Shown: positions 16,386 to 41,173 of the stretch, one piece after another
Layout: each line of letters opens with the position of its first letter
Position numbering within the stretch: the stretch's first letter is position 1
Source of the DNA: an uncultured Erysipelotrichaceae bacterium
GTDB taxonomy: Bacteria; Bacillota_I; Bacilli_A; RF39; UBA660
Direction: 5' to 3'
NCBI GenBank assembly: GCA_902767375.1
Contig: CACXGV010000001.1
Location: 1,080-65,079, forward strand
DNA: 64,000 nt
Notes under the pieces: generated by a model
Databases searched by the model: none
The model's input: only the letters and a program-made list of their open reading frames with translations
Told to the model about the DNA's origin: nothing
Translations under genes and position numbers: made by a program

Positions 16386-18632
16386 TTAATCTTCAAAAAC
16401 AGGATAACCATTAACTGAATCTAATTTCCATGTTTTCAATGTATAATCTGCTAGTAAAGGGTCAATACTACTTAAATTAATACCACCTCTACTATTATTC
16501 AATAAATATGTTACCGACGTATTAGTTAAAGGATCACCAGCAAATAATGCAGCTGTTTTTGCTGTTGTTCCTGATTTATTAGAACCAGTAGGCCCAGATA
16601 AATAATATGAATTAGTCAAAGTATAAGATGGATTAGTAGCAAAATAAGCTATTCCATATTTTCCACCTGATCCAGTTATACTACCATAATTGTGAACATT
16701 ATTTATTACTGCTGTATTTATACCTTGAATTCTGCCTACTATTCCACTTGCATATCTACTACTTGTTGAGGCACTTATTGTTCCCGTATTATAAGAATTT
16801 AATACAATTATAACATTGTCATTTTGTGCTCCACCACCAACTATACCACCAGCACATTGCGTTTGTGCAGATTGGGTACCCATATTATAACTATTTAATA
16901 CTATAGATTTACCAGTATTATTAGAAGAACATCCAATTATACCTCCAGCATAATCATGCCCTGTAACAGCACCTGTATTATAAGCATCATCAATTATCGC
17001 AATCGAAGCTGAAGTATTCCAACCAAGTATTCCAGCAGAATGCAGCGTAGAAGTTATGGTGCCGGTATTTTTAGCATTTTTAATAGTAACAATACCACCT
17101 GTGCTATTACCATATATACCACCAGCCGATTGAGCAGTCGCAGATACATCTCCATTATTTGTTACATCTTCCATATCGACGTTGCATCCAAAGATACCTA
17201 ACACACCACCACTAGCATCACCTGAACCTGTAATATCCCCATTGTTAACAAACTTATTAATAGTTATACCTTTAATCCCATTACCAGCTGCTACCACACC
17301 AGCAGCTCGATTGCCTGAAACATTACCATTATTTTTACAATTATTAATTACTATATATGCATCATCATTCCAACCAGCTCCTATGAATCCTGCAGAACTT
17401 CCTCCTGTAATATTACCATTATTCTCACTATTATTTATTTCTACTGTGCCACCATTAATTGATCCCACAAAACCTCCAAGGCTACCACCATTACCGATAT
17501 TACCATTATTATTACAATTATTAATAGTCAATTTACCGCCATTAGCAGAGCCTACAAAACCACCCTCACTCCACTCAGAATTATCATTTATAACAGTAAC
17601 ATCAACAATGACATTTTCAATTAAAACATCACCCCTTACTTCTCCAATTAAACCTGCCGAATTACTTTTAGATAAATTTGAAGTTACATTACCAGTTAAA
17701 GTTAGATTATTAAAAATTGAGCCTTCACTAGAGCAAAATAATGCTACACACGAAGATTCATCAGTATTTATATATAGATTACTAAGAGTATGACCTAGCC
17801 CATTAAAACTACCTTTAAATACAGCATTAACCCCAATTGATTCGAAACCTTGGCCAGTGGTTAATTCCGTAATTAAAGCTTCTACTGAACCATTACCATT
17901 TATATCACCATAATCAGTTCTTGTTGAATCTTCATAACTATTAGCAGTTTGAAAATCTAAATCTCTCATTAGCATAAAATCATATTCTTCAAAATCATTT
18001 CCATCATTATTCATACTTTTTGAAAGTTCTAATAAATCTTCAATATTTTGAATAGCAATAAATTTTCTTGCTTTACCATTATCTTCAACACTTATATGAG
18101 CTGCATATAATGCTCTCATATCTACACTTTGATCTACTCCTGTATCTGGGAAATATATTTTTAAGATATATGTATGAACTAAATTATCCCCTGTTGTAAA
18201 ATATCCTGTACCAAGATTTACTGTCTCTGATAATGGTGTTTTATTTTCTACACTTGGTATTGTAAGTCCATTATTTGAATTATTAATTGCTTCTAGTGTA
18301 TATACCATTGGTGTTGTTACAAAGGTATTATTATCTACTACTATACTAATTTTATATGACATTGATAAAACTTCCGTATTATTTTTACCAGTTAAAGTTA
18401 TAGTTTTAGTTACCCACGGATTATCATTATCTGGTATTAGATTATTAGCTACTATATCTGGCCCACCATCGATGTCTATCCACATTTCTCCACCATCTAA
18501 GCTTATTACTGATGCATTTTCAAGGCCCGTTACCCTAGCACTGAAAGCTGCATAAGTGACTCCAAATGCCATCACTATTAAAAGGGCAAATAAGCCAATT
18601 ACAGCAACTGTTCTTCTTGAATTTTCTACCAT
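16386..18632 (-). CDS. surface protein: TasA/camelysin-like N-module with SipW-type signal peptide, plus GLUG-type Gly/Asn-rich repeats
   Basis: N-terminus ...GVTYAAFSARVTGLENASVISLDGGEMW...HTYILKIYFPDTGVDQ, shared with three other genes in the window. The C-terminal half carries many GG(F/I)(V/I)G / NNGN repeats. Confidence 0.65.
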   Translation of the reverse strand: MVENSRRTVAVIGLFALLIVMAFGVTYAAFSARVTGLENASVISLDGGEMWIDIDGGPDIVANNLIPDNDNPWVTKTITLTGKNNTEVLSMSYKISIVVDNNTFVTTPMVYTLEAINNSNNGLTIPSVENKTPLSETVNLGTGYFTTGDNLVHTYILKIYFPDTGVDQSVDMRALYAAHISVEDNGKARKFIAIQNIEDLLELSKSMNNDGNDFEEYDFMLMRDLDFQTANSYEDSTRTDYGDINGNGSVEALITELTTGQGFESIGVNAVFKGSFNGLGHTLSNLYINTDESSCVALFCSSEGSIFNNLTLTGNVTSNLSKSNSAGLIGEVRGDVLIENVIVDVTVINDNSEWSEGGFVGSANGGKLTINNCNNNGNIGNGGSLGGFVGSINGGTVEINNSENNGNITGGSSAGFIGAGWNDDAYIVINNCKNNGNVSGNRAAGVVAAGNGIKGITINKFVNNGDITGSGDASGGVLGIFGCNVDMEDVTNNGDVSATAQSAGGIYGNSTGGIVTIKNAKNTGTITSTLHSAGILGWNTSASIAIIDDAYNTGAVTGHDYAGGIIGCSSNNTGKSIVLNSYNMGTQSAQTQCAGGIVGGGAQNDNVIIVLNSYNTGTISASTSSRYASGIVGRIQGINTAVINNVHNYGSITGSGGKYGIAYFATNPSYTLTNSYYLSGPTGSNKSGTTAKTAALFAGDPLTNTSVTYLLNNSRGGINLSSIDPLLADYTLKTWKLDSVNGYPVFED
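16652..17732 (-). repeat. coding Gly/Asn-rich GLUG-type repeat array
   Basis: Reiterated NNGN(I/V)xGxxxxGG(F/I)(V/I)G units in the 748-aa protein. They also generate the spurious antisense ORF 17182-17793. Confidence 0.6.
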
Positions 18633-21486: not shown

Positions 21487-21495
21487 ATTATAACA
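21487..21495 (-). promoter_or_regulatory. extended -10 promoter element for ftsE
   Basis: The minus strand reads TGTTATAAT (TGnTATAAT) between the terminator and the ftsE SD (AAAGGTGGAG). Confidence 0.45.
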
Positions 21496-21497
21496 TA

Positions 21498-21532
21498 AAA
21501 TCCATCTATTTTCTTTACCAATAGATGGATTT
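21498..21532 (-). terminator. strong intrinsic terminator closing the rmuC / two-HEPN operon
   Basis: Perfect 13-bp stem AAATCCATCTATT / AATAGATGGATTT with a 9-nt loop. The stop codon abuts the stem, and the transcript continues UUUUAUGUU. Confidence 0.75.
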
Positions 21533-23154
21533 TACATTAATTCATTAAATTTACTACTCTTTTCCACTTCAAGATGTAATTCCTTACATATATCTTTTAT
21601 CATTTCTAAGAACTTATCCAAACTTATATTCATATTAAATATAACTGGACTATCACCTAGTTCTTTTTCTTCCCAAGTTCTTTTACTCTTACTAAATTTA
21701 TAATAATACCTTTTAATATCTCTATCATATAAAGTTATATCGCTTTTAGATGCCTTAGAATAACCATGAGCAAAAATATTACGAAGCTGAGTAAAAAATA
21801 CTTCTGGATTTTCTCCCTTATTAATAGAATCTATCTTATTTTCTAAAAGTAAAACTCTATCTTTCATTTTATTAAGTTCAAAACGTTTATCAAAAGGAAA
21901 ACCATTCTTTTTACTATCTTCTAAAGCATTTAATAACTTCTTCAAATAATCCTTATAATAATTTCTTGCATGCCCAAAATCCATATTAATAAAAGCTTTA
22001 TACTTTCTATAAATATTATTAGAAAGAGTTTTATATCCTTCTAAATTACTTAAACAAACATTAAATACCAAATTTCCAAGCGATTTAATCAAGAAATTAA
22101 AACTATCATCTAAATATATTTCATATCTAGGATTAAGTTCTTGATTATTAGTTATTAAATTTAAAATATCCATTAAATACTTAAAAGATAAAGTATTATC
22201 TAGTTCAGCAAAATAAGATCTTTTAAAATGATTAAATAAAATATCTATTTGTTCCTTATAATTTGTAATTTTACTAAATGCAAGATTATCTTCCATATCT
22301 TTAGCAAAATCTAAAGTAAAAGGAATAAATTCTAATTTAAAACATCCATCTAATTTAGTATTTAACTCTTTTAAAACACTATTGGTTGCATAATTAAACT
22401 TTTTAGCATCTATTTCCTCATCACCTTGAGGTAAATATTTAACTAAAGAACTTTGAAAAATATCTTTAATATGCAAAAAAATTGTATAAAACTTTAAATC
22501 TTCCACATATTTAATACTTAAACTCTTACAAGCTTTTTCTAAACTATTAGTTGTAAGTGTTACCTTAACAATCCCATTAGTTTGATCTTTTAAAGTATTA
22601 TTTAAATGTTCTATAGCATTATCACCTGAAGTATTTAAAGACACTAAAAAAGAATCATATAATCCTGATTTAAATTGATAATTCCTATTTGACAAAGAAC
22701 ACACTATTGCACTTTCAAACCATTTATAATCAAAAATAACCTCAAAATTATATTTATCATTTTTAATATGAATTAAACCATCATCTGATATTTCATAATC
22801 ATTATGGGCAATAGAGTTTCTAATTAACTTAAATTGTACTCTATAATCTAAACTACTATTAGTCTTTATTCCTGCTCCATAATCATATATTGAACCATCA
22901 TCAAATAATAATTCACTAGAATTCTTCCTTATGGGATTCATCTTAAATAGATCATTTAAAGTATCATTATCAACTTCATCAAATATTAAATCATGGTTAT
23001 TTTGCATTAAAGTAACAAGCATCCAAAATTTAATATAAACACTATTATCTTTAATAATACTTAAATCATTAACATCTCTACTTCTAGCATAATTAATTAA
23101 ATGATAAAGACCAGTTAATCCTTTACTTTTATAAATATTATTTACTATCTTCAT
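21532..23154 (-). CDS. two-HEPN-motif protein (predicted RNase), otherwise unrecognised
   Basis: RNSIAH is encoded at 22804-22821 and RNIFAH at 21766-21783; I verified both on the DNA. ATG 23154 follows SD AAGGA and lies 17 nt inside the rmuC 3' end. The track start 23172 is a TTG. Confidence 0.6.
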   Translation of the reverse strand: MKIVNNIYKSKGLTGLYHLINYARSRDVNDLSIIKDNSVYIKFWMLVTLMQNNHDLIFDEVDNDTLNDLFKMNPIRKNSSELLFDDGSIYDYGAGIKTNSSLDYRVQFKLIRNSIAHNDYEISDDGLIHIKNDKYNFEVIFDYKWFESAIVCSLSNRNYQFKSGLYDSFLVSLNTSGDNAIEHLNNTLKDQTNGIVKVTLTTNSLEKACKSLSIKYVEDLKFYTIFLHIKDIFQSSLVKYLPQGDEEIDAKKFNYATNSVLKELNTKLDGCFKLEFIPFTLDFAKDMEDNLAFSKITNYKEQIDILFNHFKRSYFAELDNTLSFKYLMDILNLITNNQELNPRYEIYLDDSFNFLIKSLGNLVFNVCLSNLEGYKTLSNNIYRKYKAFINMDFGHARNYYKDYLKKLLNALEDSKKNGFPFDKRFELNKMKDRVLLLENKIDSINKGENPEVFFTQLRNIFAHGYSKASKSDITLYDRDIKRYYYKFSKSKRTWEEKELGDSPVIFNMNISLDKFLEMIKDICKELHLEVEKSSKFNELM

Positions 23155-24214
23155 TTTTATCCTTAGTTTCAATAGTTACATTACTAATAGATGCAAATCT
23201 CTTACTAATCTTATCAGTTGTTGTATGTATTTCTTCAACATCCTTAGATACCGTATTAATACTTCTAGATAGTTTATCCCATCTTTCTTTATATCGACTA
23301 AATTCAATTCCTAATTTATTTAATTCTTCATGAATAACCTTAGCATATTTATCTCTTTCCATATTCTTTAATATCATACTAATAATTGTTAAAGTACTCA
23401 TTAAAGTAGTCGGACTCGCTATCCATACTTTAGACTTATATGAATATTCTATTAAATCTGGATGATAAGCATTAATCTCAGCAAAAATAGCCTCTGCTGG
23501 CAAAAACATAATTGCTTCCATCGCTGTTTCACCTGGAATAATATATTTTTCACGTATGGCATCTATATGCTTTTTAACATCTGCTTTAAAAGCTTTACTA
23601 GCAGCATCTCTTTCACTTTTCTCTCTAGATCTATCAGTCATTATTTGATAATGCTCTAGTGGAAACTTAGAATCAATTGCTATTGTACCAAGTGGTTCTG
23701 GGGCAAAAACTACTGCATCAGCAATTGTTTCATTACTCATAGTATATTGTAGTCTATATATCTTATCATTAACCCCAAATACACTATTTAAAATATATTG
23801 TAAATTTGTTTCTCCAAATATTCCTCTAGTCTTTTTATCTGTTAAAACACTTTGAAGTGAAATTATATCATTAGAAAGACCATCAATCTTCTTTTGAGCT
23901 TCATCTATCTTACTAATTCTTTCTAATATAGATGTAAAAGTTTTATTAGTCTTTTCAAAATTAGCATCTAATCTTTCATTAACTTTTTCATTTAAATACA
24001 TTAATCTTTTTTCAATTACTTCATTGGTTTCTTTAAAATCTTTTTCTATATCTTTACTAAAATCATACTTAAAATCTCCTAAAGCTTTAGTAATATCTGT
24101 TTCAAACTTACCAAGTTTTAAAGTAATTTCTTCATTATTATTCTTTTTAACAAGTAAAACTATAAGAAGTATTATAACTACTACTAATAATCCTATAACG
24201 ATATATATCTCCAT
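23138..24214 (-). CDS. rmuC: DNA recombination protein RmuC
   Basis: N-terminal TM, coiled coil, and an RmuC-domain core (IAIDSKFPLEHY...). Confidence 0.85.
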   Translation of the reverse strand: MEIYIVIGLLVVVIILLIVLLVKKNNNEEITLKLGKFETDITKALGDFKYDFSKDIEKDFKETNEVIEKRLMYLNEKVNERLDANFEKTNKTFTSILERISKIDEAQKKIDGLSNDIISLQSVLTDKKTRGIFGETNLQYILNSVFGVNDKIYRLQYTMSNETIADAVVFAPEPLGTIAIDSKFPLEHYQIMTDRSREKSERDAASKAFKADVKKHIDAIREKYIIPGETAMEAIMFLPAEAIFAEINAYHPDLIEYSYKSKVWIASPTTLMSTLTIISMILKNMERDKYAKVIHEELNKLGIEFSRYKERWDKLSRSINTVSKDVEEIHTTTDKISKRFASISNVTIETKDKNEDSK

Positions 24215-24217: not shown

Positions 24218-24802
24218 CTACTCCAATCTAAATCTTTTATTAACCAATTTACTTATTATAAATACCACCATAAGTATTACTGCAATTTTAATTAAAATAT
24301 AAGGATTTTTAAAACTTTCAATTAAACTAGTTCCTATATAAGCCCAGAAATAAGCCATAAAGAATTTCCCAATTATAAGCCCAAATACAAACTTTTTAGT
24401 ACTCATATTAGATAAACCAGCTGCTATATTAACTAAAAAAGCTGGTGTAAAAGGTATCGCTATAAGTAAAGCAAGTTCTGAAAGGTTAATATCATTAAAT
24501 AATTTCATCATCTTTTTAAGTAACTTATGTTCTTTTTTATCCATCATCCCATCAAAATGCTTCTTTAATTTACCTCTACATAATCTATAAGAAATAAAAC
24601 ATCCAACACAAGTTAATACATAACTTATAATAAATCCCAGTATCCCTAAATAATAACAATTAACTGTAATAAATAAACCTAAAGGCAAAACCGGTAAGAT
24701 AGACTCTACTGTTATTAATAAGCACGCAAGTAAAGGAGCAAAAGCTCCCAATGAATTAAGTATACCTGTAATTAAATTGTCTAAATTATTAAAAAATTCC
24801 AT
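24218..24802 (-). CDS. TVP38/TMEM64 (DedA-related) family membrane protein
   Basis: 194-aa polytopic protein with the family-typical layout. Its stop is 3 nt before the rmuC start. Confidence 0.65.
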   Translation of the reverse strand: MEFFNNLDNLITGILNSLGAFAPLLACLLITVESILPVLPLGLFITVNCYYLGILGFIISYVLTCVGCFISYRLCRGKLKKHFDGMMDKKEHKLLKKMMKLFNDINLSELALLIAIPFTPAFLVNIAAGLSNMSTKKFVFGLIIGKFFMAYFWAYIGTSLIESFKNPYILIKIAVILMVVFIISKLVNKRFRLE

Positions 24803-24840
24803 ATCATTATTATATAAAAAAAAAGACTATTTTTAAAGCC

Positions 24841-25059
24841 CTATTTATTTAAAACTAAGGTTGTATTATAACCATATGCTTCCAATATTAAAGCAACTCT
24901 TTTAGCCTTTTTTCCACTTTTACAATAAAAATAATACTTATAATCCTTATTTAAGTATTTATAATGATTATTTAAAAGATTATCATATGGAACAAATTCC
25001 TTATCTAAATCAATAAACATTCCATCATTCTTATAGTCTTTTTTGTTAATAACTTTCAT
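24841..25059 (-). CDS. short rhodanese-like domain protein
   Basis: 72 aa. The active-site-loop region YFYCKSGKKAKRVALILEAYGY resembles single-domain rhodaneses, but the protein is shorter than usual. Confidence 0.45.
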   Translation of the reverse strand: MKVINKKDYKNDGMFIDLDKEFVPYDNLLNNHYKYLNKDYKYYFYCKSGKKAKRVALILEAYGYNTTLVLNK

Positions 25060-25073: not shown

Positions 25074-25096
25074 AAAAAAAAAGAGTTGTTACTCTT
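25074..25096 (-). terminator. intrinsic terminator after the stand-alone TasA-like gene
   Basis: AAGAGT / ACTCTT stem with loop TGTT, followed by a 9-nt U-run on the transcript. Confidence 0.5.
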
Positions 25097-25649
25097 TTCC
25101 ATCAGTTATATTTATTTTAGCTCTAATTTCCTTTTCCTGGTCAGTATTTTGATCAACCCCAGTATCAGGGAAATATATCTTTAATACATAATTATGAATA
25201 ACTCCATCAGCTTCCGTAAATTTACCAGAGCCAAGTAAAAGAGGCCCTAAAGTATTAGGAATAGGAGTTTGATTACTTACATTAACTACATCTTGATTTT
25301 CTGTTGGACTATAACCATTTAAAGTATAAGTTAAAGCGTTATTCGAAAAAGTATTACTCTCAACATTTAAATAAATATTATATTCCATATCAAGTTCAGT
25401 TGTATTGGTTCCTGTTAAAGCGAATCTCTTAGTAGCCCATTCTTCTTCTCTTGGATAAATATTCCTAACTTCTAAAAAATTATCTTCTGCATAAGAAATA
25501 ACCATTCTACCCGCACTTAAACTAATTGTTGAAGCATTTTCTATTCCAGTAATATTAGCTGTAAAGTATGCATAAGATACACTAACAACAGTTACAACTA
25601 AAACTATAACAGATAAAATTCCTATATATAATTTCTTTCGCTCAGTCAT
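25089..25649 (-). CDS. stand-alone TasA/camelysin-like module with SipW-type signal peptide
   Basis: MTERKKLYIGILSVIVLVVTVVSVSYAYFTANITGIENASTISLSAGRMV...HNYVLKIYFPDTGVDQ. This is the N-domain only, with no C-terminal cargo. ATG 25649 follows GGAGAGTGAT; the track start is a GTG. Confidence 0.65.
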   Translation of the reverse strand: MTERKKLYIGILSVIVLVVTVVSVSYAYFTANITGIENASTISLSAGRMVISYAEDNFLEVRNIYPREEEWATKRFALTGTNTTELDMEYNIYLNVESNTFSNNALTYTLNGYSPTENQDVVNVSNQTPIPNTLGPLLLGSGKFTEADGVIHNYVLKIYFPDTGVDQNTDQEKEIRAKINITDGKE

Positions 25650-25708
25650 ATCTATCACTCTCCAATATAATTTTACTAAATATTTATAAATAATTCAAGA
25701 ATAATAAT

Positions 25709-25728
25709 AAGAACACCTAAGTGTTCTT
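25709..25728 (-). terminator. hairpin at the end of the T4SS operon (after the coupling-protein gene)
   Basis: AAGAACAC / GTGTTCTT 8-bp stem with loop CTAA, overlapping the stop codon. The downstream tract is U-rich but interrupted. Confidence 0.5.
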
Positions 25729-28042
25729 ATTCATCTTCATTAAAGAAGTCATCATAATACTGATCATCAGTAACATCACCAACAATGACACTATCTTTAT
25801 CAATATTAACTACTGGTTCATCTGTAGTAGTATCATCATTCTTCATAAAATCATCAAACTTCTGAACAACAGTATTATCTAAAGTATCATAATCAACTTC
25901 ATCTTTAGGATGTACCTCTGTTTTTACTTCTTCTGAAGCATTTTGTTCTTTCTCTAAACGTTCTTGTTCTTCTAATTCAGCAATTTTAGCATCAATTCTT
26001 TTAACTAAACTATCAATATCAAATTTAGGAGTAACAGTCTTATTTTCAATAATCCTTTCAACTGGTTTTGCAGGTATATCCTGAACTACCGGACTAATCT
26101 TTTCAGTTTCTTCCACAGGTTCTTCATTTGCTACCTGTTGTTGTTCACCCGCAAAGTTAAATGGATTAAATAAATTAGCAAATGGTGAATTGTCTTCTTC
26201 TTTATCATTTATTAAAGATACAGGAGGAGCAATTGGAGTATCATCCTTTATTTCCTCTCTTTCAGGTTCAATAGTTGGTTTAGAATCTAAATTCTTATTA
26301 CCATCTAAAGCCTCAAATAACTTATTTCTTTTCTTAACTTTAACAAATTCTTTAATATCAAACATCTCAATTGGACGTTTTTCTCTTGCAACAAGTTCAC
26401 CTTTACCAAAAGCTGAAGTCCCCCAATCAATTTCATAGCTTGGTTTTAACTTAGTTCTAAAAGGATTTAATCTACTATGAAGGATAATAACTTCATTCAT
26501 CTCTAATTTTTGTAAATCACTAACTGTAATAAGTGGCGTAGATGCTGTTTTTTCTTTATCTTTAGATTTAACCTCACCACATAACTTACTAATTTCTTCT
26601 AAAGCCGCAAGTTCCGTCGTTAATAGATAAATTAAATTACCACAGTTACTTCTAATAGTTTCAGCATCTTCTTTACCATAAACATCATTTAACTGAGCAA
26701 AGTTCTGAACTATAAAAGTAAATCTTATTGAACGGCTTCTTGCTGCTGTAACCATTGTAGTAACATCTTTAAGTGGAGGCATATTTGCAAACTCATCTAA
26801 AATAAAATTAGTACGATATTTAAGTCTACCATTTGGTTCTTTTTGTGCAACTCCAATTAAAGTTTCATAAACTTGTTTAATGAAAATAGTAGCAAGCGCA
26901 TGATAGGTTGTTTTTTCATCTTGAACTATCATAAACACTGCTGTTTTTTCATTACCAATATCATTCATATTAAAATCACTATAAGAAAGCATTTCTGACA
27001 AATTCTCTCTTGTAGCAAATTGTCTAATCTTTGATCTAAATACTGATAAAATACTTCCCTTTGTTTCATTAGGAGCATTTATTGTATTATTAGCAAATGT
27101 ATAAGGAGTAGACTCCTCACCTTTTAAAGTAAAATATTCTTTAACATAATTACTAGTTGCAAAAGTATCTTCTCCTACAGTTGACATATAATTAACTGAG
27201 TTAATATTTATTTGTTCTTCCTTAGCATCTTCAAATAAACCTAATACTAAACCAGAAAAATAATCTGAAGAAGATTTTTCCCAGAATGGATCATTCTTAT
27301 TTTCTGGATCATACATAATATTTAAAGAAATATCTTCTAAAAGCTCAATTGCTTTATCAACATTTCCTGATTTATATAACTTATAAGGTAAAGTTAAAGG
27401 ATTCCAAGAATTCCCATATGCTGGATCTCTAAAGTTTAAAACAACTATTTTATATCCCTTAGCTCTAAGCATTTCTGAATGATTACGATAAATCTCACCC
27501 TTAGGGTCAGTCATAATCATACTTTCACCCTTCTTAGATAAACTATAAATTAAAGGATCTACTAGAGCCGTAGTTTTACCTGAACCAGTTTGCCCAACAA
27601 CTAAAGTATGATGATGTGCATTATCAACATACATATCTTTACCATCATTTATAACTACAATACCTGCTCCATCAGCAGTTTCAGCTTTAATTGGAACTCT
27701 TACTATTCCCGGAGCTTTTTTCATCTCTTGTGGTTTTAACCACCTACTATAACCCTTTTCTTCTTTTTCCTTAAAAGTAAGACCAAACCCCTTTGATCCC
27801 TTATCTCTTTCAAATATATAAGAAGAAACACTCATAAAAATTGCAATTAAAACTGCAAAGAATACCACTAAAGTTGGTATTAAATAAGGAGGTAAAAATC
27901 CTGCGAAAAAATTAAGTCCAAAAAATTCTGTAGAATCTAATAAAGATGTTACATTTAAAACTGCCAAAGATGACATAATAAGTAAAAAGATACAAAATAT
28001 AATAAATATTATTAGATCTTTAGGGGCTACTCTAAATTTCAT
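25727..28042 (-). CDS. type IV coupling protein (VirD4/TraG/TcpA-like ATPase)
   Basis: Two N-terminal TM segments, Walker A VVGQTGSGKTT, Walker B-like FILDEFANM, and a long acidic C-terminal tail. Confidence 0.85.
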   Translation of the reverse strand: MKFRVAPKDLIIFIIFCIFLLIMSSLAVLNVTSLLDSTEFFGLNFFAGFLPPYLIPTLVVFFAVLIAIFMSVSSYIFERDKGSKGFGLTFKEKEEKGYSRWLKPQEMKKAPGIVRVPIKAETADGAGIVVINDGKDMYVDNAHHHTLVVGQTGSGKTTALVDPLIYSLSKKGESMIMTDPKGEIYRNHSEMLRAKGYKIVVLNFRDPAYGNSWNPLTLPYKLYKSGNVDKAIELLEDISLNIMYDPENKNDPFWEKSSSDYFSGLVLGLFEDAKEEQININSVNYMSTVGEDTFATSNYVKEYFTLKGEESTPYTFANNTINAPNETKGSILSVFRSKIRQFATRENLSEMLSYSDFNMNDIGNEKTAVFMIVQDEKTTYHALATIFIKQVYETLIGVAQKEPNGRLKYRTNFILDEFANMPPLKDVTTMVTAARSRSIRFTFIVQNFAQLNDVYGKEDAETIRSNCGNLIYLLTTELAALEEISKLCGEVKSKDKEKTASTPLITVSDLQKLEMNEVIILHSRLNPFRTKLKPSYEIDWGTSAFGKGELVAREKRPIEMFDIKEFVKVKKRNKLFEALDGNKNLDSKPTIEPEREEIKDDTPIAPPVSLINDKEEDNSPFANLFNPFNFAGEQQQVANEEPVEETEKISPVVQDIPAKPVERIIENKTVTPKFDIDSLVKRIDAKIAELEEQERLEKEQNASEEVKTEVHPKDEVDYDTLDNTVVQKFDDFMKNDDTTTDEPVVNIDKDSVIVGDVTDDQYYDDFFNEDE

Positions 28043-28095
28043 CTAATCCCTCCTTGCACTACTAATTATATACTAAAATATGATTTTTTTCCACA

Positions 28096-28809
28096 TTAAT
28101 TATTAGAATTCTTTACTTTACCTAAAACAATTATTACCCCAAATAATAATGTGGCACCCAAAACCATAAAAACGATGTTAATAATACTATTTGATAGTTT
28201 ACTATCCCTTAACTTAGAATATTTACTTGTCTTATCAACTACTATATTAATAGTTTTATTCTCATAATTATTCTTAGTAAAAACCCAAGTATAAGTTTGA
28301 TCATTAACCGCATCAGCATTACTCTCTATTACTTGATAATAAGAAGTAACATTTATTGTTAACTTATCTAAATCAGGATAAGATTTAAATAAAGAATTAC
28401 CTTCTGGATTTCCACTACTAAAACTAAATCTATCCTTACTATTAGTAACACTACGATAATTAAAAGGTAGTAACAGATAAGTCTTTTCATACTTATCCAT
28501 ATCAAATGTATAAGTAAACCTTAATCCATATGCATCACTATTATCAATTTTTTCTTTATTATAATAATTATATCCATCTAATCTAGAAAACAACTCTGGA
28601 TATCCAGGAGTATCAGCATCAACTGCCAAATTAAAATTCTCATAATTATAATCTATCATTGCTTTATTAGTTATTTCACCATATTTTTTATTTAAAGCAT
28701 TAATAACTAATTCATCACTAATTGTTTTCTCATCAATTTTAACATTATAAACCGCTTCACAACCAGATAAAAGAAATACACTTATTATTAATAATAAAAT
28801 CTTTTTCAT
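28096..28809 (-). CDS. lipoprotein with additional C-terminal TM anchor (T4SS-associated)
   Basis: Lipobox LLSGC at residues 13-17; C-terminal IINIVFMVLGATLLFGVIIVLG. Confidence 0.6.
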   Translation of the reverse strand: MKKILLLIISVFLLSGCEAVYNVKIDEKTISDELVINALNKKYGEITNKAMIDYNYENFNLAVDADTPGYPELFSRLDGYNYYNKEKIDNSDAYGLRFTYTFDMDKYEKTYLLLPFNYRSVTNSKDRFSFSSGNPEGNSLFKSYPDLDKLTINVTSYYQVIESNADAVNDQTYTWVFTKNNYENKTINIVVDKTSKYSKLRDSKLSNSIINIVFMVLGATLLFGVIIVLGKVKNSNN

Positions 28810-28810
28810 A

Positions 28811-30676
28811 TTAACAATTCCTATCTATATATCCTTGTAAAGACATAATCTGATAACTACTAGCAGATCCTGGAGTATATTGTCCAAAAACAAGACCCAT
28901 TTGTCCACCAGCTGACTCTAATGTTACCAAATAACCACCTTTATTCTCTACTACTAAAATAACATGACCTTCATTAACTAAAATATCTCCGGGACCAGCT
29001 TCTTGGAAAGAAATCCTTGTTCCAATAGACATAAAACCAGTTGTAATATATCCTCCAATATCTTTTCCCATTGCATTACCTAATGCCCAAGAAACAAATC
29101 CTGAACAGTCAAATCCATAATAATTATAGCAAGTACTTGGACTACAACTGGCACCAACCTGCGATCCATGTTTTGGATTGACTCCCATATAAATAGAGCC
29201 TTCGTGGCCACCACCCCAATAATAAGGTAATCGATAACCTGCTTGATATAAACCATAAGCAAGAGTTACTCCTGCAGCTGCTACTGCCGCCCTTGTACAT
29301 TTTCCTGATGCGTTTACATTTTCCGTAACAGCCGCGTGTAAAGACTCATAGGCATCATCACCTAAAGCTGTTCTAATTGGAGTTGTTAATAAATTTGTAC
29401 CAGCAGTCCCACTAGGATAACTATCTAAAAGATATGGTACTCCCGTATGGAAATGTTCTTTAATATAAGCAAGAACCATTGCATGAATCTTACGATAAGT
29501 AGTATCAGTATAACTAACTCCATCAATTACTTCTGCCCTATTTACCATTCCATATATATCTATAAAATTATCACCAATTTTAGATTTTAACTGGTTATTA
29601 AAAATTTGAACCTTTTGATTAGTAGCACCAGGCACTACCGTTTGACCATCTGCTATAGGCCCCAATCCCAAAAATAAGAAATGAACATCAGAATTACTAC
29701 TAGCCATTGCATTATAAGCATTATAATAACTAGCATAATTATTTAAATCATTTAATCCTAAATTAATAACAACAAATCTAATCTTAACATTTGGATCAGC
29801 TATTTTACTATTTATTTCAGCCCTAGCCGAACCCATAAACCAGTTATAATTACCTTGATCATTATAAATAAAAGTTAAATCATCAGCACTAATAATATGG
29901 CTCATTTCCTTTATACGACTATCTCCAACATATATCATCATACGTTGAATATCCGCCTCAGTAAGCACTCCTGGACCTTGAGTACCTACAGTATCTTTCG
30001 GAGTTGGCTTATAAATATCCTCAGTTAAATCTAAAAGACCACCCAAAGCCGGACCTAAAATAGCAACAAAAAGAATTAAAAAAATAGCACCAAAACCAAA
30101 TATTGAAAAGATAATACTACGAACTAAAATCTTCTTAAGAAAACCTTTTCTCTTTTCCTTCTTTTCCTCTTTTTCTTCTTGTTCAGTTTTAACTTCTTCA
30201 TCTTGAGGAATTTCTTGTGGTGCTTTGCTACCACCTTTACCAGTTACCTTATCTTTAGCCCACTGTTTGCCAGTTTCCTTGGCAAGATCTTTAGCCCCTT
30301 CCTTAGTAAGACTTTCCTTACTTACTCCACCAGCAACTGTATCCGCAGCGTTAATTAAACCAGTATCATTTGCCGTATTAATAACGCCTTGTAATTGTTT
30401 ACCACCTAGCGAATATTTATTAGCTTGAGTAACAGCTTTACCTGCCGTGTTTATTACAGCTTGACCAGTTTTTGTACTAGCAACAATATCAACTGCTTTC
30501 CCACCAGCTTTTCCAAAATAAGCAGTTGCAACAGCTTTACCTGCAACTTTTACTGCTTTAGCATTGGACTCATCGGCATGGGCTTTTTCAGCTGCTTTTT
30601 TTTGTTTTTCTTTTTGCTCTGGACTTAATTCTTCACGAGGCTCAAGTTCATCTTCTCTATCAAACCCATCATCCAT
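28811..30676 (-). CDS. membrane-anchored bifunctional cell-wall hydrolase: SGNH/GDSL-like esterase plus NlpC/P60 endopeptidase
   Basis: Cytoplasmic N-terminus with GKAV repeats, then a TM segment. GDS block YVGDSR and GxND block NLGLND. NlpC/P60 Cys in FDCSGFVSWA and His in GHVILVV. Confidence 0.7.
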   Translation of the reverse strand: MDDGFDREDELEPREELSPEQKEKQKKAAEKAHADESNAKAVKVAGKAVATAYFGKAGGKAVDIVASTKTGQAVINTAGKAVTQANKYSLGGKQLQGVINTANDTGLINAADTVAGGVSKESLTKEGAKDLAKETGKQWAKDKVTGKGGSKAPQEIPQDEEVKTEQEEKEEKKEKRKGFLKKILVRSIIFSIFGFGAIFLILFVAILGPALGGLLDLTEDIYKPTPKDTVGTQGPGVLTEADIQRMMIYVGDSRIKEMSHIISADDLTFIYNDQGNYNWFMGSARAEINSKIADPNVKIRFVVINLGLNDLNNYASYYNAYNAMASSNSDVHFLFLGLGPIADGQTVVPGATNQKVQIFNNQLKSKIGDNFIDIYGMVNRAEVIDGVSYTDTTYRKIHAMVLAYIKEHFHTGVPYLLDSYPSGTAGTNLLTTPIRTALGDDAYESLHAAVTENVNASGKCTRAAVAAAGVTLAYGLYQAGYRLPYYWGGGHEGSIYMGVNPKHGSQVGASCSPSTCYNYYGFDCSGFVSWALGNAMGKDIGGYITTGFMSIGTRISFQEAGPGDILVNEGHVILVVENKGGYLVTLESAGGQMGLVFGQYTPGSASSYQIMSLQGYIDRNC

Positions 30677-30700
30677 AGCTATTACTCCTTTCTAAAAATA

Positions 30701-31180
30701 CTAATAAATTCTAACTTTATAATTCATAATTGAAGATTCAACAAAACCATATTCATTGCCTATTGAATCCATCGCAAAATAAACTCTTTTACCATCTACC
30801 ATTTCATTAGAATAATTTCTAACTGTTGTAGTATAAAAACCTTTCTTTTGTTTTAAAGTATCTAAATAACTTTTAAAACTTTTATAACTATCAAACTTTT
30901 CAATTAAAGTTTCATCATCAAGCATTGTAAATGCTTTTTCTGGATCATTAATTAAAATATCCATAAATTCACTATAATATTTCTTAACAAGTTCTTCATC
31001 GGTAATATACACCGGTATTACTTCATTTACTTCATAATCTTTAAATTCAAAATCCTGTTTTAATACTCTTCCATTACTTCCATCATTTTCTTTAAATATA
31101 AATGATATTATTAATGGAACAAGTATAATAATAAGCCCGATTAAGAGAGGCCTTAAAGAGTTTTTTGAAAGTTCTTCCAT
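30701..31180 (-). CDS. TM-anchored T4SS-associated protein (VirB8-like position; unverified)
   Basis: 159 aa with an N-terminal TM and a ~120-aa soluble domain. TAATG overlap with the upstream gene. Confidence 0.4.
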   Translation of the reverse strand: MEELSKNSLRPLLIGLIIILVPLIISFIFKENDGSNGRVLKQDFEFKDYEVNEVIPVYITDEELVKKYYSEFMDILINDPEKAFTMLDDETLIEKFDSYKSFKSYLDTLKQKKGFYTTTVRNYSNEMVDGKRVYFAMDSIGNEYGFVESSIMNYKVRIY

Positions 31181-31692
31181 TATAATGCCTCCTTAAAATA
31201 CTTACCATCATATGGTTCAACACTAAATAAATTTTTTTTATTATCAATATTAACTATTAAATAATAATCTGAACCACCATCATATTCATTTATAAATTCT
31301 TTTTTCAATAATCCATAAATATAATACTTTGTAATACTTCCATTTTTAGAATAATACATCTTCCTAGCATTAAATGAATATAAATCATCTAATTCACCTA
31401 AATTCTTAATTAGATTACTTTTATTAAGATTATTATTATTAAGATATTGATTATCCACAATTTTCATTAAGTTATCCACATTTTTTTTGCTTAAATTTAA
31501 AATATATCTATTAGCACAACTTTCAACTGTAAAAAAAGTTGATTTTTCACTAACAAGAGCATATGATTCTTTAGTATTTTGCTGTTCTACAGCAAGTTCC
31601 TCTGCATCGCCTTTTCTTATTACAAAGAATAGACCGATAGCTAAAAGGGTGATAATCCCTATTAAAATATAATCTGTTTTATTTAATTTCAT
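31180..31692 (-). CDS. TM-anchored T4SS-associated protein (VirB8-like position; unverified)
   Basis: About 170 aa with an N-terminal TM and a ~130-aa soluble domain. ATG 31692 follows AAAGGTGAT. Confidence 0.4.
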   Translation of the reverse strand: MKLNKTDYILIGIITLLAIGLFFVIRKGDAEELAVEQQNTKESYALVSEKSTFFTVESCANRYILNLSKKNVDNLMKIVDNQYLNNNNLNKSNLIKNLGELDDLYSFNARKMYYSKNGSITKYYIYGLLKKEFINEYDGGSDYYLIVNIDNKKNLFSVEPYDGKYFKEAL

Positions 31693-31707
31693 AATTATCA
31701 CCTTTTT

Positions 31708-33759
31708 CTAATAAGAACCATCATAGATGCCTTGTAAGAAAGTTAAATTACATTCCTTATATCTTCTAGTTTTTAATCCCCCTAAAACAGTACCACTACC
31801 ATCTCTAATATAATAATTGTTCCACCAACTTGAACATAATGATTGAGAATTACCATATCTACTATAAGCTGATAAAAAATCATCCATACGATAACCAGCA
31901 TTATAACAAAGATCTGTAAGAGCATCTATTTGATTTTGACTAAATGAAAGTCCAGCACTGGCAAGTTTTCCACGTACGTATTCAGCCCATTTTTCAACTT
32001 CAACGGCAAACACTTGCTCAACTACTGATTTAGGAATTGTACTACCACAATAATTACTATAAGGTGGACTACCTACTAAAGGATAACCCACACTAGCAAA
32101 TGTAGCTGCATTATGTGTAAGCGTAACCCCAGGTCCAGCCGTTGGAACATCACCTGAATTACAATAAACTACATAACTATCTCCACTAGCTGGTCCTGCT
32201 CCTTCAAATCCAATTAACATTCCAATAAGTTCACCTAAACTAGATAAACTAGAAGGTCTAGGATTATTTGGATCAATATAATCAAGTGGATCTACCGCTG
32301 TAGATTGGCTAGTACCAGTACGCACTTCAAAATGTAAATGGGTTCCTGTACTTACTCCACTAGTTCCCATCTTACCAATTACCTGCCCTTGAACAACTGA
32401 TTCTCCTTCATGAACAGTAATTGAGTTTTCATGCATATGACCATAGAAAGTATATAAACCATCACTATGTTGAATTTGAACGTAATTACCATATCCACCA
32501 CCACAATGGTCTTCTTGATTAGATGTTGAAAAACATCCTGTATTTACTGCTACAACAGTTCCATTTTTTGCCGCAATGATATTGGTATTACCATTACCTC
32601 CAACACCTGCTAAATCAACCCCATAGTGTTTACGTGTAGTCCCATAAACTGGATGAACTCTAACTCCATAATTACTTGTAATTGTAACAGAAACTGGATC
32701 TCCAGCTGCAAAAACTTTCCCATTTTGCTCTGTTACTTCCGCACTACCTATTGGCCACCAATAATTATCATTATTAGAAGCACCTAAATATCCAGGATTA
32801 GTTCTTCCCTTATTGTATTCTTCTAATAATTCCTTAATTTCTTTAACAATTTGTTTTCTAACTTTAACTAAATCTTCCGCATATTTTTCTTTATCTAATT
32901 GATCTAAACTTTCAACCCCAGCCTTTTCTAATACGGCATTATATCTATGCCATAAATGAGGCTTACGATCAAAATAATCACCTTGTTCTAAGAAATCCCA
33001 GTACCCATCAACTAAAACTTTCTTTTGAGCACTTACTGATTCATCTGATACTGTAAAACCTTGTTCATAAGCTTTAGCTTCACAATCAGATTGTTTATGA
33101 GAAAATAAACCAAAGAAAGATTTAACTCCACTGGCAAACTTTTCCCAGAAAGATAATGACTCACTATAAATTAAAGTATAACATTTTCCATCTTCATTTA
33201 ATGAACCTGAATCACATATTGAAGTAGTAACTCCACTTTCATCTGTTACTTCATAAGAATCTTGAATCCCATAACAAGTCTTTTCATATCCAATCATAGC
33301 ATTAATTAATAGCTTTAATGAATCTCTTTCTTGTTCAAAATACTCTGCTGTTGCATTATCTCCATCATCACCATTATCATCAATATTATAAGCATTACTT
33401 CCATCATTAAAAAATGAAAGTTCATACTCAAAGAATATCGTTGCTATAATAATTGAATCTTCTATAAAATAACCTTTTCTTTGTTTACTAGCTAGTATTT
33501 TATATAACTGAGTATAGAATTTTCTTTGTTGTTTAATAATTTTATCAACACATCTATCTCTATCCTCTTCTTTTTCACCCATACAAGCTCTAATCCAATA
33601 ATCTTTTGTTTGCTCTGCAAATTCATCAAAATCAAAATCACTATACTTTTGAATATCTGCATTTACAGGTTTTACCGCAAACGAAAAAACTATTAAAAAG
33701 ATGAATAGTATTTTCATCATCTTATTTAATAATTTATGTTTGTTATTTCTATAATTCAT
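31708..33759 (-). CDS. secreted bifunctional cell-wall hydrolase: M23 peptidase plus GH24 phage-type lysozyme
   Basis: Signal peptide. M23 motifs HYGVDLAG and GTHLHFEVR. C-terminal lysozyme motifs FEGAG, QNQIDALTDLCYNAG and GLKTRRYKE. Confidence 0.8.
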   Translation of the reverse strand: MNYRNNKHKLLNKMMKILFIFLIVFSFAVKPVNADIQKYSDFDFDEFAEQTKDYWIRACMGEKEEDRDRCVDKIIKQQRKFYTQLYKILASKQRKGYFIEDSIIIATIFFEYELSFFNDGSNAYNIDDNGDDGDNATAEYFEQERDSLKLLINAMIGYEKTCYGIQDSYEVTDESGVTTSICDSGSLNEDGKCYTLIYSESLSFWEKFASGVKSFFGLFSHKQSDCEAKAYEQGFTVSDESVSAQKKVLVDGYWDFLEQGDYFDRKPHLWHRYNAVLEKAGVESLDQLDKEKYAEDLVKVRKQIVKEIKELLEEYNKGRTNPGYLGASNNDNYWWPIGSAEVTEQNGKVFAAGDPVSVTITSNYGVRVHPVYGTTRKHYGVDLAGVGGNGNTNIIAAKNGTVVAVNTGCFSTSNQEDHCGGGYGNYVQIQHSDGLYTFYGHMHENSITVHEGESVVQGQVIGKMGTSGVSTGTHLHFEVRTGTSQSTAVDPLDYIDPNNPRPSSLSSLGELIGMLIGFEGAGPASGDSYVVYCNSGDVPTAGPGVTLTHNAATFASVGYPLVGSPPYSNYCGSTIPKSVVEQVFAVEVEKWAEYVRGKLASAGLSFSQNQIDALTDLCYNAGYRMDDFLSAYSRYGNSQSLCSSWWNNYYIRDGSGTVLGGLKTRRYKECNLTFLQGIYDGSY

Positions 33760-33778
33760 AGAAAACCACCTCTAACTA

Positions 33779-36426: not shown

Positions 36427-36436
36427 TTATTCCTCC

Positions 36437-39735: not shown

Positions 39736-39750
39736 TAAACAGCCTCCTTT

Positions 39751-40647: not shown

Positions 40648-40685
40648 ATTAACTACCTCGAATTTCACACAATTATACATTAAAC

Positions 40686-40721: not shown

Positions 40722-40738
40722 TTCATACATATTTTTAA

Positions 40739-41171: not shown

Positions 41172-41173
41172 CA

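What the first reader, a model, noticed from the sequence alone, without database searches (positions are those of the whole stretch)
21532..23154. Compact protein with two R-N-x-x-x-H HEPN motifs, translationally coupled to rmuC, with no CRISPR array
The ~540-aa ORF starts at ATG 23154 after SD AAGGA, 17 nt inside the end of rmuC. It contains the HEPN RNase signature twice:
- FKLIRNSIAHNDYEI (DNA 22804-22821)
- FTQLRNIFAHGYSKA (DNA 21766-21783)

The two motifs are about 345 residues apart, one near each end of the protein. Two RNxxxH motifs in one polypeptide is the arrangement that builds the composite RNase centre of Cas13 effectors. RNxxAH is also the flavour found in Abi_2 (AbiD/AbiF-type) abortive-infection proteins. 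I recognise nothing else in the sequence.

There is no repeat array anywhere in the window. The operon (possibly rhodanese-TVP38-rmuC-HEPN) ends at a perfect 13-bp-stem terminator. Candidate readings are a stand-alone dual-HEPN abortive-infection or toxin RNase, or a functional pair with RmuC, whose core is a restriction-endonuclease-like fold.
Basis: partly seen in the sequence, partly recalled or inferred. Interest (0 to 1): 0.8.

Follow-up and report, generated by a model that had tools for sequence, protein, structure and literature searches.

The report
Unannotated stand-alone tandem-HEPN RNase family
This gene encodes a real, conserved but so far unnamed protein with two copies of an RNA-cutting (HEPN) module in one chain; it is not a CRISPR protein, is inherited vertically in uncultured gut and rumen Bacilli, and evolves unusually fast, so it is probably a regulated RNase whose role is still open.

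Summary
The 540-aa ORF (21532-23154, minus strand) starts 17 nt inside rmuC. It carries RNSIAH (R112-H117) and RNIFAH (R458-H463), ends at a strong terminator hairpin, and the window has no CRISPR array.

No Pfam, NCBIfam, PADLOC, PHROGs or PDB model matches the protein itself. An exhaustive profile search found a family of about 57 clusters. Across 40 full-length members (18-59% identity) the only invariant residues are R112, H117, W145, R458 and H463.

Distant members hit HEPN-clan Pfam models over both motif regions, one above Pfam's threshold. The two modules are homologous to each other (hhalign 92-93%). The AlphaFold topology fits the published HEPN definition, but Foldseek found no significant structural neighbour.

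The rmuC link is synteny of one clade only. Other subfamilies follow trmB, rnhB or ackA, and closely related rmuC loci lack the gene. The family is absent from the phage, plasmid and IMG/VR collections searched, and it descends vertically. It is nevertheless the fastest-evolving gene of its block in two independent clades.

Best reading: a stand-alone cis-tandem HEPN endoribonuclease. It is not Cas13-like in guidance and shows no sign of depending on RmuC. Whether it serves conflict or housekeeping is unresolved. It is a new variant of a known kind.

The parts
21532..23154 (-). CDS of the 540-aa tandem-HEPN protein ('X')
   Evidence: ORF and sequence. About 57 homologous clusters. Confident AF2 model, pLDDT 85, pTM 0.84.
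22675..23154 (-). N-terminal HEPN module (residues 1-160): H1 2-25, H2 38-51, insert 52-103, H3 104-116 carrying the motif, beta-hairpin 128-141, H4 143-154
   Evidence: AF2 secondary structure. Members hit HEPN_LA2681, Abi_2, pEK499_p136 and HepT-like models over this region. Topology fits the HEPN definition in PMC3710099.
22804..22821 (-). HEPN motif 1, R112-N-S-I-A-H117
   Evidence: R112 and H117 are invariant in 40 sequences.
22720..22722 (-). Codon of W145, the only other invariant residue (helix 4 of the N-terminal module)
21973..22674 (-). Middle alpha/beta region (residues 161-394), no recognisable family. It holds the least conserved stretch of the protein (residues about 210-300).
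   Evidence: Per-region conservation. No Pfam or PDB match. hhalign controls negative.
21565..21972 (-). C-terminal HEPN module (residues 395-530): H 396-417, H 421-445, H 453-463 carrying the motif, five-strand beta insert 466-511, H 512-525
   Evidence: AF2. pEK499_p136 hits over this region in P0059 (28.2 bits against a cut-off of 26.6), P0056, P0052, P0043 and P0066. Homologous to the N-terminal module (hhalign 92-93%, E = 2e-7).
21766..21783 (-). HEPN motif 2, R458-N-I-F-A-H463
   Evidence: R458 and H463 are invariant and N459 is above 90% in 40 sequences.
23138..23166 (-). rmuC/X junction: Shine-Dalgarno AAGGA, ATG 23154, and a 17-nt overlap with the end of rmuC
   Evidence: Sequence. 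An overlap of 8-17 nt is kept in the window and four clade-A loci examined (L001, L003, L010, L012).
23138..24214 (-). rmuC (N-terminal TM helix, coiled coil, RmuC nuclease domain), upstream gene of the operon
   Evidence: Pfam PF02646, E = 5.8e-58. 77-88% identical across clade A.
24218..25059 (-). Upstream operon genes: VTT/TVP38-type membrane protein (24218-24802) and a 72-aa rhodanese-like protein (24841-25059)
   Evidence: Pfam. Syntenic in L001, L003, L007 and L012.
21491..21539 (-). Intrinsic terminator hairpin that overlaps the stop codon, followed by a T-run
   Evidence: -21.9 kcal/mol, z = -8. Position is conserved, but the sequence is replaced in L007 and absent in L012.
21487..21495 (-). 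Extended -10 box (TGTTATAAT) of the separate ftsEX-pcsB transcription unit
   Evidence: Invariant TATG(T/A)TATA(A/C)T in six loci.

Best explanation
X is a stand-alone, single-chain tandem-HEPN endoribonuclease of a previously unannotated family.

**Architecture.** It has two mutually homologous HEPN modules, residues about 1-160 and about 395-530. [quoted passage not shown] A variable region of about 230 aa separates them.

**Mechanism (inferred).** By analogy with all characterised HEPN nucleases, the two R-N-x3-H motifs are expected to be juxtaposed into one composite, metal-independent RNA-cleaving centre. Here that would happen in cis, as in Cas13, but without a guide RNA. The variable middle region would serve as scaffold, substrate-recognition element or regulatory element.

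**Genomic setting.**
- X is expressed as the last gene of the rhodanese-VTT-rmuC operon and is translationally coupled to rmuC. That adjacency is lineage-specific synteny, not a functional requirement.
- The gene is chromosomal and vertically inherited in uncultured gut and rumen Bacilli (Erysipelotrichaceae-like MAGs).

**Biological role.**
- X evolves several-fold faster than its neighbours while keeping the four catalytic residues.
- From this I lean, at about 45%, to a regulated RNase that acts in conflict or stress: a fixed innate-immunity or abortive-infection-like effector.
- I give about 25% to a lineage-specific housekeeping RNA-processing enzyme.

**Shown:** the motifs, their conservation, module homology, profile links to HEPN models, predicted topology, genomic contexts and evolutionary rates.
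**Inferred:** RNase activity, the cis composite site, regulation and the biological role.
For: **Conservation and chance**
- The only invariant columns in 40 full-length members (18-59% identity) are R112, H117, W145, R458 and H463. N459 is above 90%.
- Two RN...H motifs arise by chance in 3.4e-4 of shuffles.

**Links to HEPN families**
- N-terminal motif region: P0031 hits LA2681, P0034 hits Abi_2, P0040 hits pEK499_p136 and HepT-like, P0064 hits pEK499_p136.
- C-terminal motif region: P0059 hits pEK499_p136 at 28.2 bits (cut-off 26.6, E = 1.8e-6). P0056, P0052, P0043 and P0066 give weaker hits.
- PADLOC gives only HEPN-module hits: CARF_HEPN in 5 members and RT-associated HEPN in 3.

**Internal duplication and topology**
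- The N- and C-terminal modules align with 92-93% probability (E = 2e-7) and R112/H117 falls on R458/H463. Controls against the middle region are negative.
- AF2 models are confident (pLDDT 85 and 89).
- The predicted topology matches the published HEPN definition: motif at the end of helix 3, polar residue after R, insert between helices 2 and 3, beta-hairpin after the motif as in Csx1.

**Mechanistic precedent**
- Composite HEPN sites need two RphixxxH motifs, assembled in trans or in cis (bioRxiv 10.1101/760058).

**Context and descent**
- Five different housekeeping neighbourhoods were found across subfamilies.
- No CRISPR array or Rfam element is present, and there is no room for a cis ncRNA.
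- There are no phage, plasmid or IMG/VR hits.
- GC3 matches the neighbours.
- Descent is vertical but fast. X is 30-59% identical where every neighbour is at least 57%, with Spearman 0.65-0.80 against neighbours.
- Crude dN/dS is about 0.6-0.7 against 0.1-0.3 for its conserved neighbours (MurJ, TrmB, sortase) in a second clade.
Against: - The window protein itself matches no HEPN model, even at E <= 1.
- Foldseek found no significant neighbour for the whole model or for the N-terminal module. Profile searches of PDB sequences found no HEPN structure. Fold-level membership therefore rests on predicted topology and sub-threshold profile hits in relatives.
- No model coordinates were available, so the cis juxtaposition of the motifs is untested. 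The protein could equally act as a homodimer.
- No activity data exist.
- For the conflict leaning: the gene is not in a defence island, is not mobile, and has no sensor or antitoxin partner. Fast evolution could simply reflect weak constraint on a scaffold.
- The dS values used are near saturation, so the dN/dS figures are crude.
Confidence: 0.62

Rival explanations
1. Lineage-specific housekeeping RNase, a bacterial analogue of Las1. X would perform a constitutive RNA-processing or decay step, for example on rRNA, tRNA or primer RNA. That would explain why it sits in core operons with RmuC, RNase HII, TrmB, QueA or DnaG.
For: - Each clade keeps a fixed chromosomal slot and descent is vertical.
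- X is co-directional and tightly packed (-17 to +17 nt) behind nucleic-acid enzymes. rnhB lies upstream in two deeply separated subfamilies.
- Composition is native.
- X is absent from the mobile-element collections searched.
- Las1 shows that HEPN nucleases can be housekeeping enzymes.
Against: - X is the fastest-evolving gene of its block in all 15 pairwise comparisons and in a second clade. Core RNases normally evolve slowly.
- The neighbourhood themes are heterogeneous.
- Closely related rmuC loci lack X nearby.
- The family is small and taxonomically narrow.
Confidence: 0.25
2. X and RmuC form a two-nuclease module, with an RNase plus a PD-(D/E)XK DNase acting together. This would resemble the RmuC-based Shield defence system or the dual RNA/DNA attack of type III CRISPR systems.
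For: - The start codon overlaps the rmuC stop by 8-17 nt in the window and four clade-A loci examined, even where X is only 28-59% identical to the window protein.
- RmuC-domain proteins with a TM helix and coiled coil are the core of the Shield defence system (PMC11090510).
Against: - The whole block VTT-rmuC-X-ftsEX-pcsB is syntenic, so the adjacency is not independent evidence.
- Five other subfamily contexts have no rmuC.
- RmuC loci about 80% identical to L012's have no X within 5 kb.
- The rates do not match: RmuC is 77-88% identical where X is 30-59%.
- No RmuC-X fusion appears among 57 representatives.
- The RmuC protein hits only an RT-associated RmuC model in PADLOC.
Confidence: 0.08
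3. X is an orphan or miniature Cas13-like, RNA-guided effector, or an AbiF-like type III toxin held in check by a cis-encoded ncRNA.
For: - X has two HEPN motifs in one chain of a size similar to the smallest Cas13 proteins.
- One member gives a weak Abi_2 hit.
- AbiF is reported as the ancestor of Cas13 (PMC12737573).
Against: - No array, repeat or Rfam element was found in the window.
- Flanking intergenic regions run from -17 to about 90 nt upstream. Downstream they hold only a replaceable terminator.
- No sequence or structural similarity to any Cas13 or AbiF (8VZ6) chain in the PDB was found.
- X is not on plasmids or phages.
Confidence: 0.04
4. The motifs are conserved for structural or RNA-binding reasons only, and the protein is catalytically inactive.
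For: Some HEPN domains are non-catalytic (PMC3710099). No activity data exist for X.
Against: Inactive HEPN domains typically lose the R or H. Here both pairs are the only invariant residues of the family, and the polar residue after R is also kept.
Confidence: 0.05

Closest known systems
pEK499_p136-like HEPN family (Pfam PF18736; Anantharaman et al. 2013, PMC3710099)
   Same: It is the best profile match for both modules in family members, and one match exceeds Pfam's threshold. It shares the Rx4H motif with a polar second residue.
   Different: - The window protein does not match the model at all.
- The known family is a single module of about 150 aa, found in R-M, Pgl, or ART/Macro operons.
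- X is a tandem of two diverged modules with a 230-aa insert, and it sits in housekeeping neighbourhoods.
Cas13 (type VI CRISPR effectors)
   Same: Two HEPN motifs lie in one polypeptide. Cis assembly of a composite RNase site is the mechanism I infer for X.
   Different: - X has no CRISPR array or crRNA.
- No detectable sequence or structural similarity was found.
- X is vertically inherited in a fixed chromosomal slot.
Abi_2 / AbiD-AbiF abortive-infection HEPN toxins
   Same: They share the RNxxAH flavour of the motif. One member gives a weak Abi_2 hit over the N-terminal module.
   Different: - AbiF has a single HEPN domain and acts as a homodimer, neutralised by a cis-encoded ncRNA. AbiF systems are known from plasmids and phages (titles and my own knowledge).
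- X is a tandem, has no ncRNA locus and is chromosomal.
Las1 and the Swt1-like HEPN dyad (eukaryotic RNA-processing HEPN nucleases)
   Same: Las1 is a precedent for a housekeeping HEPN nuclease with a composite two-motif site. Swt1 is listed as a dyad of HEPN domains in one protein, and two members give weak HEPN_Swt1 hits.
   Different: No significant homology was found. Las1 works as a homodimer with the Grc3 kinase, and Swt1 is fused to a PIN domain. X has neither partner nor fusion.
Shield (ShdA, RmuC-domain defence system of Pseudomonas)
   Same: The upstream gene has the TM, coiled-coil and RmuC architecture and is co-transcribed with a second gene.
   Different: This RmuC is a highly conserved, abundant chromosomal RmuC of Bacilli MAGs. 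No Shield model matched it, and the partner gene is not linked to it outside one clade.

Membership tests
HEPN superfamily | Conserved Rx4-6H motif with a polar residue (N/D/H) after the R | tested here: met
   Two motifs. R and H are invariant in 40 sequences. The second residue is N, D or G in motif 1 and N, T, H or S in motif 2.
HEPN superfamily | [quoted passage not shown] | tested here: met
   Met at the level of AF2-predicted secondary structure only. N-terminal module: H2-25, H38-51, insert, H104-116 (R112, H117), hairpin, H143-154. C-terminal module: H396-417, H421-445, H453-463 (R458, H463), beta insert, H512-525.
HEPN superfamily | Significant structural similarity to a solved HEPN domain | tested here: inconclusive
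HEPN superfamily | Profile similarity to established HEPN families | tested here: met
   Met for the family, not for the window protein alone. P0059 scores 28.2 bits against the 26.6 cut-off for PF18736. At least 12 further sub-threshold HEPN-clan hits cover both motif regions. PADLOC gives HEPN-module hits. The window protein has no hit.
HEPN superfamily | Two motifs juxtaposed in a composite active site; metal-independent cleavage giving 2',3'-cyclic phosphate | not testable with these tools
pEK499_p136 HEPN (PF18736) | Score at or above Pfam's gathering threshold | tested here: not met
   The window protein has no hit at E <= 1. Only 1 of 40 members passes.
Cas13 / type VI CRISPR | Adjacent CRISPR array and crRNA dependence | tested here: not met
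   No array in the 64 kb window and no Rfam hit. Flanks in 12 loci leave no room for one.
Cas13 / type VI CRISPR | Homology to a Cas13 subtype | tested here: not met
   No Cas13 chain was found in PDB sequence or profile searches or by Foldseek. No Cas13 model matched in PADLOC.
Abi_2 (AbiD/AbiF) | PF07751 match | tested here: not met
   No PF07751 hit for the window protein. One member scores 17.8 bits, below the 25.6 cut-off.
Abi_2 (AbiD/AbiF) | Cis-encoded ncRNA antitoxin and a mobile-element location | tested here: not met
   There is no ncRNA locus next to X. There are no plasmid or phage hits.
Shield-type RmuC defence pair | RmuC protein matching ShdA, with the partner gene consistently linked to it | tested here: not met
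   PADLOC gives only the RT-associated RmuC model for RmuC. I did not verify that this PADLOC release contains Shield models. The linkage is broken in sister lineages and in other X subfamilies.
RmuC family (upstream gene) | PF02646 domain | tested here: met
   E = 5.8e-58, 196.7 bits.

The most novel reading that the evidence does not exclude
X is a guide-independent, cis-tandem HEPN RNase that has been fixed in the core genome of a gut and rumen Bacilli lineage. It would be a self-contained sensor-effector of innate immunity, with the fast-evolving middle region sensing a phage or stress cue and unlocking the composite site. That would make it a bacterial counterpart of RNase L and the first characterised non-Cas13 HEPN nuclease to assemble its active site in cis.
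Probability: 0.2. Interest if true: 0.75.

Novelty: new variant of a known kind. Interest (0 to 1): 0.55.

Why it matters
**Mechanism.** According to the 2019 Las1 preprint, cis assembly of a HEPN active site from tandem domains had been observed only in Cas13. A compact 540-aa tandem-HEPN protein with no guide, no partner gene and a confident predicted structure would be a second, independent example. It could also serve as a small scaffold for studying or engineering HEPN regulation.

**Biology.** The gene combines core-like vertical inheritance with conflict-like evolutionary rates. It is therefore a test case for whether immune-type RNases can become fixed chromosomal residents, or whether bacteria have housekeeping HEPN nucleases.

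**Annotation.** The family has no Pfam, NCBIfam, PADLOC or PHROGs model. A new model would label about 57 clusters of hypothetical proteins in gut and rumen MAGs.

Tried and rejected
**Searches on the protein itself that found nothing**
- Pfam, NCBIfam, PADLOC and PHROGs gave no usable hit.
- PDB sequence searches with the single protein and with three profiles found nothing relevant.
- Foldseek of the whole model against the PDB and BFVD, and of the N-terminal module against the PDB, gave no hit below E = 0.1.

**Searches that were uninformative**
- The word-indexed homologue search with the 40-sequence profile returned nothing new.
- Collection scans with the full 40-sequence alignment failed for lack of a conserved stretch. 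Sub-alignments worked.

**Ideas tested and rejected**
- CRISPR or ncRNA partner: rejected.
- The hairpin after X as a specific RNA element: rejected. Its position is conserved but its sequence is replaced, so it is an ordinary terminator.
- The unannotated 532-555-aa ORFs upstream of VTT-rmuC in sister lineages as relocated X homologues: rejected. They give no HMM hit at E <= 10 and carry no Rx4-6H motif. They appear to be secreted or pilin-like proteins, judged from their sequences.
- The fragmented rmuC next to an intact X in L013 as a natural experiment: rejected. The 1.3-kb divergent block looks like a recombination tract or a mixed-strain assembly chimera.
- Horizontal acquisition of X: rejected on native GC3 and divergence congruent with neighbours.
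Full report
**1. The observation**

The minus-strand ORF at 21532-23154 is real. From ATG 23154 it encodes 540 aa. An upstream in-frame TTG exists at 23172, but all homologues align from the ATG.

The ATG lies 17 nt inside the 3' end of rmuC (23138-24214; Pfam RmuC, E = 5.8e-58). AAGGA precedes it by 5 nt.

- RNSIAH is R112-H117, DNA 22821-22804.
- RNIFAH is R458-H463, DNA 21783-21766.

These are the only RN...H strings in the 57 long ORFs of the window. Only 3.4e-4 of composition-preserving shuffles of the protein carry two or more.

The gene ends in a strong hairpin that overlaps the stop codon (-21.9 kcal/mol, z = -8). The window has no CRISPR-like array and no Rfam family.

**2. The family**

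The protein itself matches nothing in Pfam, NCBIfam, PADLOC, PHROGs or PDB sequences.

The word-indexed search found eight full-length relatives at 44-59% identity. An exhaustive HMMER search with their profile found 57 representative clusters, about 45 of them full length at 450-553 aa.

In an alignment of 40 full-length members at 18-59% identity, the only invariant columns are R112, H117, W145, R458 and H463. N459 is above 90%. Both Rx4H pairs are therefore the most strongly constrained positions of the family. This is what one expects of catalytic residues, and it is the opposite of what is seen in inactivated HEPN domains.

**3. Is it HEPN?**

Scanning all members against Pfam gave repeated HEPN-clan hits and little else recurrent. 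They map onto both motif regions.

| Region | Member and family |
|---|---|
| N-terminal | P0031 to HEPN_LA2681; P0034 to Abi_2; P0040 to pEK499_p136 and HepT-like; P0064 to pEK499_p136 |
| C-terminal | P0059 to pEK499_p136 at 28.2 bits (gathering score 26.6); P0056, P0052, P0043 and P0066 below threshold |

PADLOC adds only HEPN-module hits: CARF_HEPN and RT-associated HEPN.

A profile-profile comparison of the N-terminal module against the C-terminal module gives 92-93% probability (E = 2e-7). It places R112/H117 on R458/H463, with a 24-residue beta insertion in the C-terminal copy. Controls against the middle region are negative. The protein is therefore an internal duplication of one HEPN-type module.

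AlphaFold models are confident: pLDDT 85 and pTM 0.84 for the whole chain, pLDDT 89 for the N-terminal module. Their secondary-structure order fits the published definition of the fold (PMC3710099):
- A polar residue follows the R.
- An insert lies between helices 2 and 3.
- A beta-hairpin follows the motif, as in Csx1.

Foldseek found no significant neighbour in the PDB or BFVD for the whole model, or in the PDB for the N-terminal module. The tools return no coordinates, so I could not measure whether the two motifs face each other.

**4. Genomic context and the rmuC question**

In the window's clade the whole block is syntenic: rhodanese, VTT, rmuC, X, then a terminator, then ftsE-ftsX-pcsB. 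This clade covers the window, L001, L003-L007 and L010-L013. X is 28-59% identical to the window protein across it, and its start overlaps the rmuC stop by 8-17 nt.

Records naming the organisms call them uncultured Erysipelotrichaceae or Bacilli MAGs from rumen and gut.

Outside this clade the gene sits elsewhere:

| Subfamily locus | Neighbourhood |
|---|---|
| L014, L018-L021 (human gut) | after trmB, facing a sortase gene |
| L017 and L009 (two deep subfamilies) | after rnhB (RNase HII); L017 is followed by queA and dnaG |
| L015 | between ackA and a DHH gene |
| L008 | before an ASCH/HD gene |

Conversely, rmuC loci whose RmuC is about 80% identical to that of L012 keep VTT-rmuC but have no family member within 5 kb. 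That is as close as the window's own RmuC is to L012's.

The rmuC adjacency is therefore inherited synteny of one clade, not a recurrent association.

The hairpin after X is an ordinary terminator. Its position is kept, its sequence is replaced in L007 and it is absent in L012. An invariant extended -10 for ftsE follows it. Nowhere is there room for a cis-encoded ncRNA.

The 16 kb upstream in the window (25.7-42 kb) is a Gram-positive conjugation module. The same operon follows glyS in L003 and L004 without that module, so X is not part of it.

**5. Evolutionary behaviour**

X has the same GC3 as its neighbours. tblastn found no relatives in the phage or plasmid collections, and pattern scans found none in IMG/VR.

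Its pairwise divergence tracks that of its neighbours, with Spearman 0.65-0.80 over 15 pairs. This indicates vertical descent.

It is nevertheless the most diverged gene in every comparison:

| Gene | Pairwise identity across clade A |
|---|---|
| X | 30-59% |
| RmuC | 77-88% |
| FtsE | 85-96% |
| FtsX | 57-81% |
| PcsB | 58-80% |

The trmB-linked clade shows the same pattern independently. X is 46% identical where MurJ, TrmB and sortase are 77-85%. Its dN is 0.42 against 0.10-0.20, and crude dN/dS is about 0.6 against 0.1-0.2. dS is near saturation there, so these ratios are rough.

Conservation peaks around the two motif modules and is lowest at residues about 210-300 and 420-450.

Short relatives made of the C-terminal module alone also exist: 162-228 aa, or 299-306 aa with N-terminal transmembrane segments.

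**6. Mechanism**

All characterised HEPN nucleases cut RNA without metal at a composite site built from two juxtaposed RphixxxH motifs. The site is assembled in trans by dimerisation or in cis from tandem domains, and the cis mode had been observed only in Cas13 (bioRxiv 10.1101/760058).

With two homologous, fully conserved motif modules in one chain, the most economical reading is a cis-tandem HEPN endoribonuclease. An always-open site would be toxic, so the variable middle region probably gates the site or recognises substrate. These steps are inferred, not shown.

I put about 0.6 on this molecular picture as a whole. That includes independence from CRISPR RNA and from RmuC.

For the biological role I lean to a regulated conflict or stress RNase. 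The grounds are the fast evolution and the fact that all related HEPN families are conflict-associated. A lineage-specific housekeeping RNase remains a serious rival at about 0.25, on the grounds of the fixed slot, vertical descent and operons with nucleic-acid enzymes.

A dedicated RmuC-X pair gets about 0.08, a Cas13-like or AbiF-like RNA-controlled effector about 0.04, and an inactive protein about 0.05.

**7. Comparison with known systems, and novelty**

X works like a HEPN RNase and most resembles the pEK499_p136-type module. It is not a member of that Pfam family by score. It differs in architecture (a tandem with a 230-aa insert) and in context, because the known family sits in R-M, Pgl or ART-Macro operons.

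It shares with Cas13 only the two-HEPN-in-one-chain principle.

It is not AbiF-like in architecture or genetics. AbiF has a single HEPN domain, acts as a homodimer and is neutralised by a cis ncRNA. AbiF systems are known from plasmids and phages (titles and my own knowledge).

I classify X as a new variant of a known kind: a new, unannotated tandem-HEPN family. Interest is moderate. It would rise if the cis composite site and a guide-free triggered activity were demonstrated.

Noticed in passing
window 25727-42205 (minus strand): A Gram-positive conjugation (type IV secretion) module lies directly upstream of the operon. It comprises a VirD4/TraG-type coupling protein (25727-28042), an NlpC/P60 hydrolase, an M23 plus lysozyme hydrolase, a VirB4-like ATPase (33779-35569) and a TrbL/VirB6-like 959-aa protein. 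L001 has the same module. L003 and L004 have glyS there instead.
   Followed up: partly
L012 4448-5709 vs L013: Two contigs encode an identical X protein and are identical over 10 kb, except for a 1.3-kb block covering the 3' half of the VTT gene and most of rmuC. That block has 226 mismatches and 24 indels, and it fragments both genes in L013. It is either a recombination tract from a diverged allele or a mixed-strain assembly chimera.
   Followed up: partly
window 16386-18632 and 25089-25658 (minus strand): The 748-aa and 189-aa proteins share an N-terminal module of about 180 aa: a TM helix, then '...TG(L/I)ENAS(V/T)ISL...', ending '...LKIYFPDTGVDQ...'. The module gives a weak camelysin (Peptidase_M73) hit. 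The 748-aa protein continues with G/N-rich repeats spaced about 30 aa apart. Similar secreted or pilin-like ORFs flank rmuC in L023-L026.
   Followed up: no
P0067-P0073 and P0077: Short relatives consist of the C-terminal HEPN module only (162-228 aa). Two proteins of about 300 aa (P0068, P0069) carry N-terminal transmembrane segments plus this module. They may be single-domain, dimerising versions of the family.
   Followed up: partly
L019 9278-9949, L021 7674-8345: In the trmB-linked clade a 223-aa gene beyond the sortase gene also evolves very fast: 42% identity where neighbours are 77-85%, with dN/dS about 0.5. Its function is unknown and it has no Pfam hit in L014.
   Followed up: no
L025 2208-2498: A ToxN-type toxin gene (type III toxin-antitoxin, PF13958) sits about 2 kb upstream of VTT-rmuC in one sister-lineage locus but not in its close relatives L023 and L024.
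   Followed up: no
window 47414-48226: Imperfect tandem repeats of 75 nt (about 74% identical, roughly 3-4 copies in each of two arrays) lie inside the 595-aa ORF at 47279-49066. They are coding repeats of 25 aa, not a CRISPR array.
   Followed up: no
L010 vs L012: This pair is an outlier. The neighbours are 71-93% identical, yet X is only 36% identical. This suggests episodic acceleration or allelic replacement of X in one lineage.
   Followed up: no
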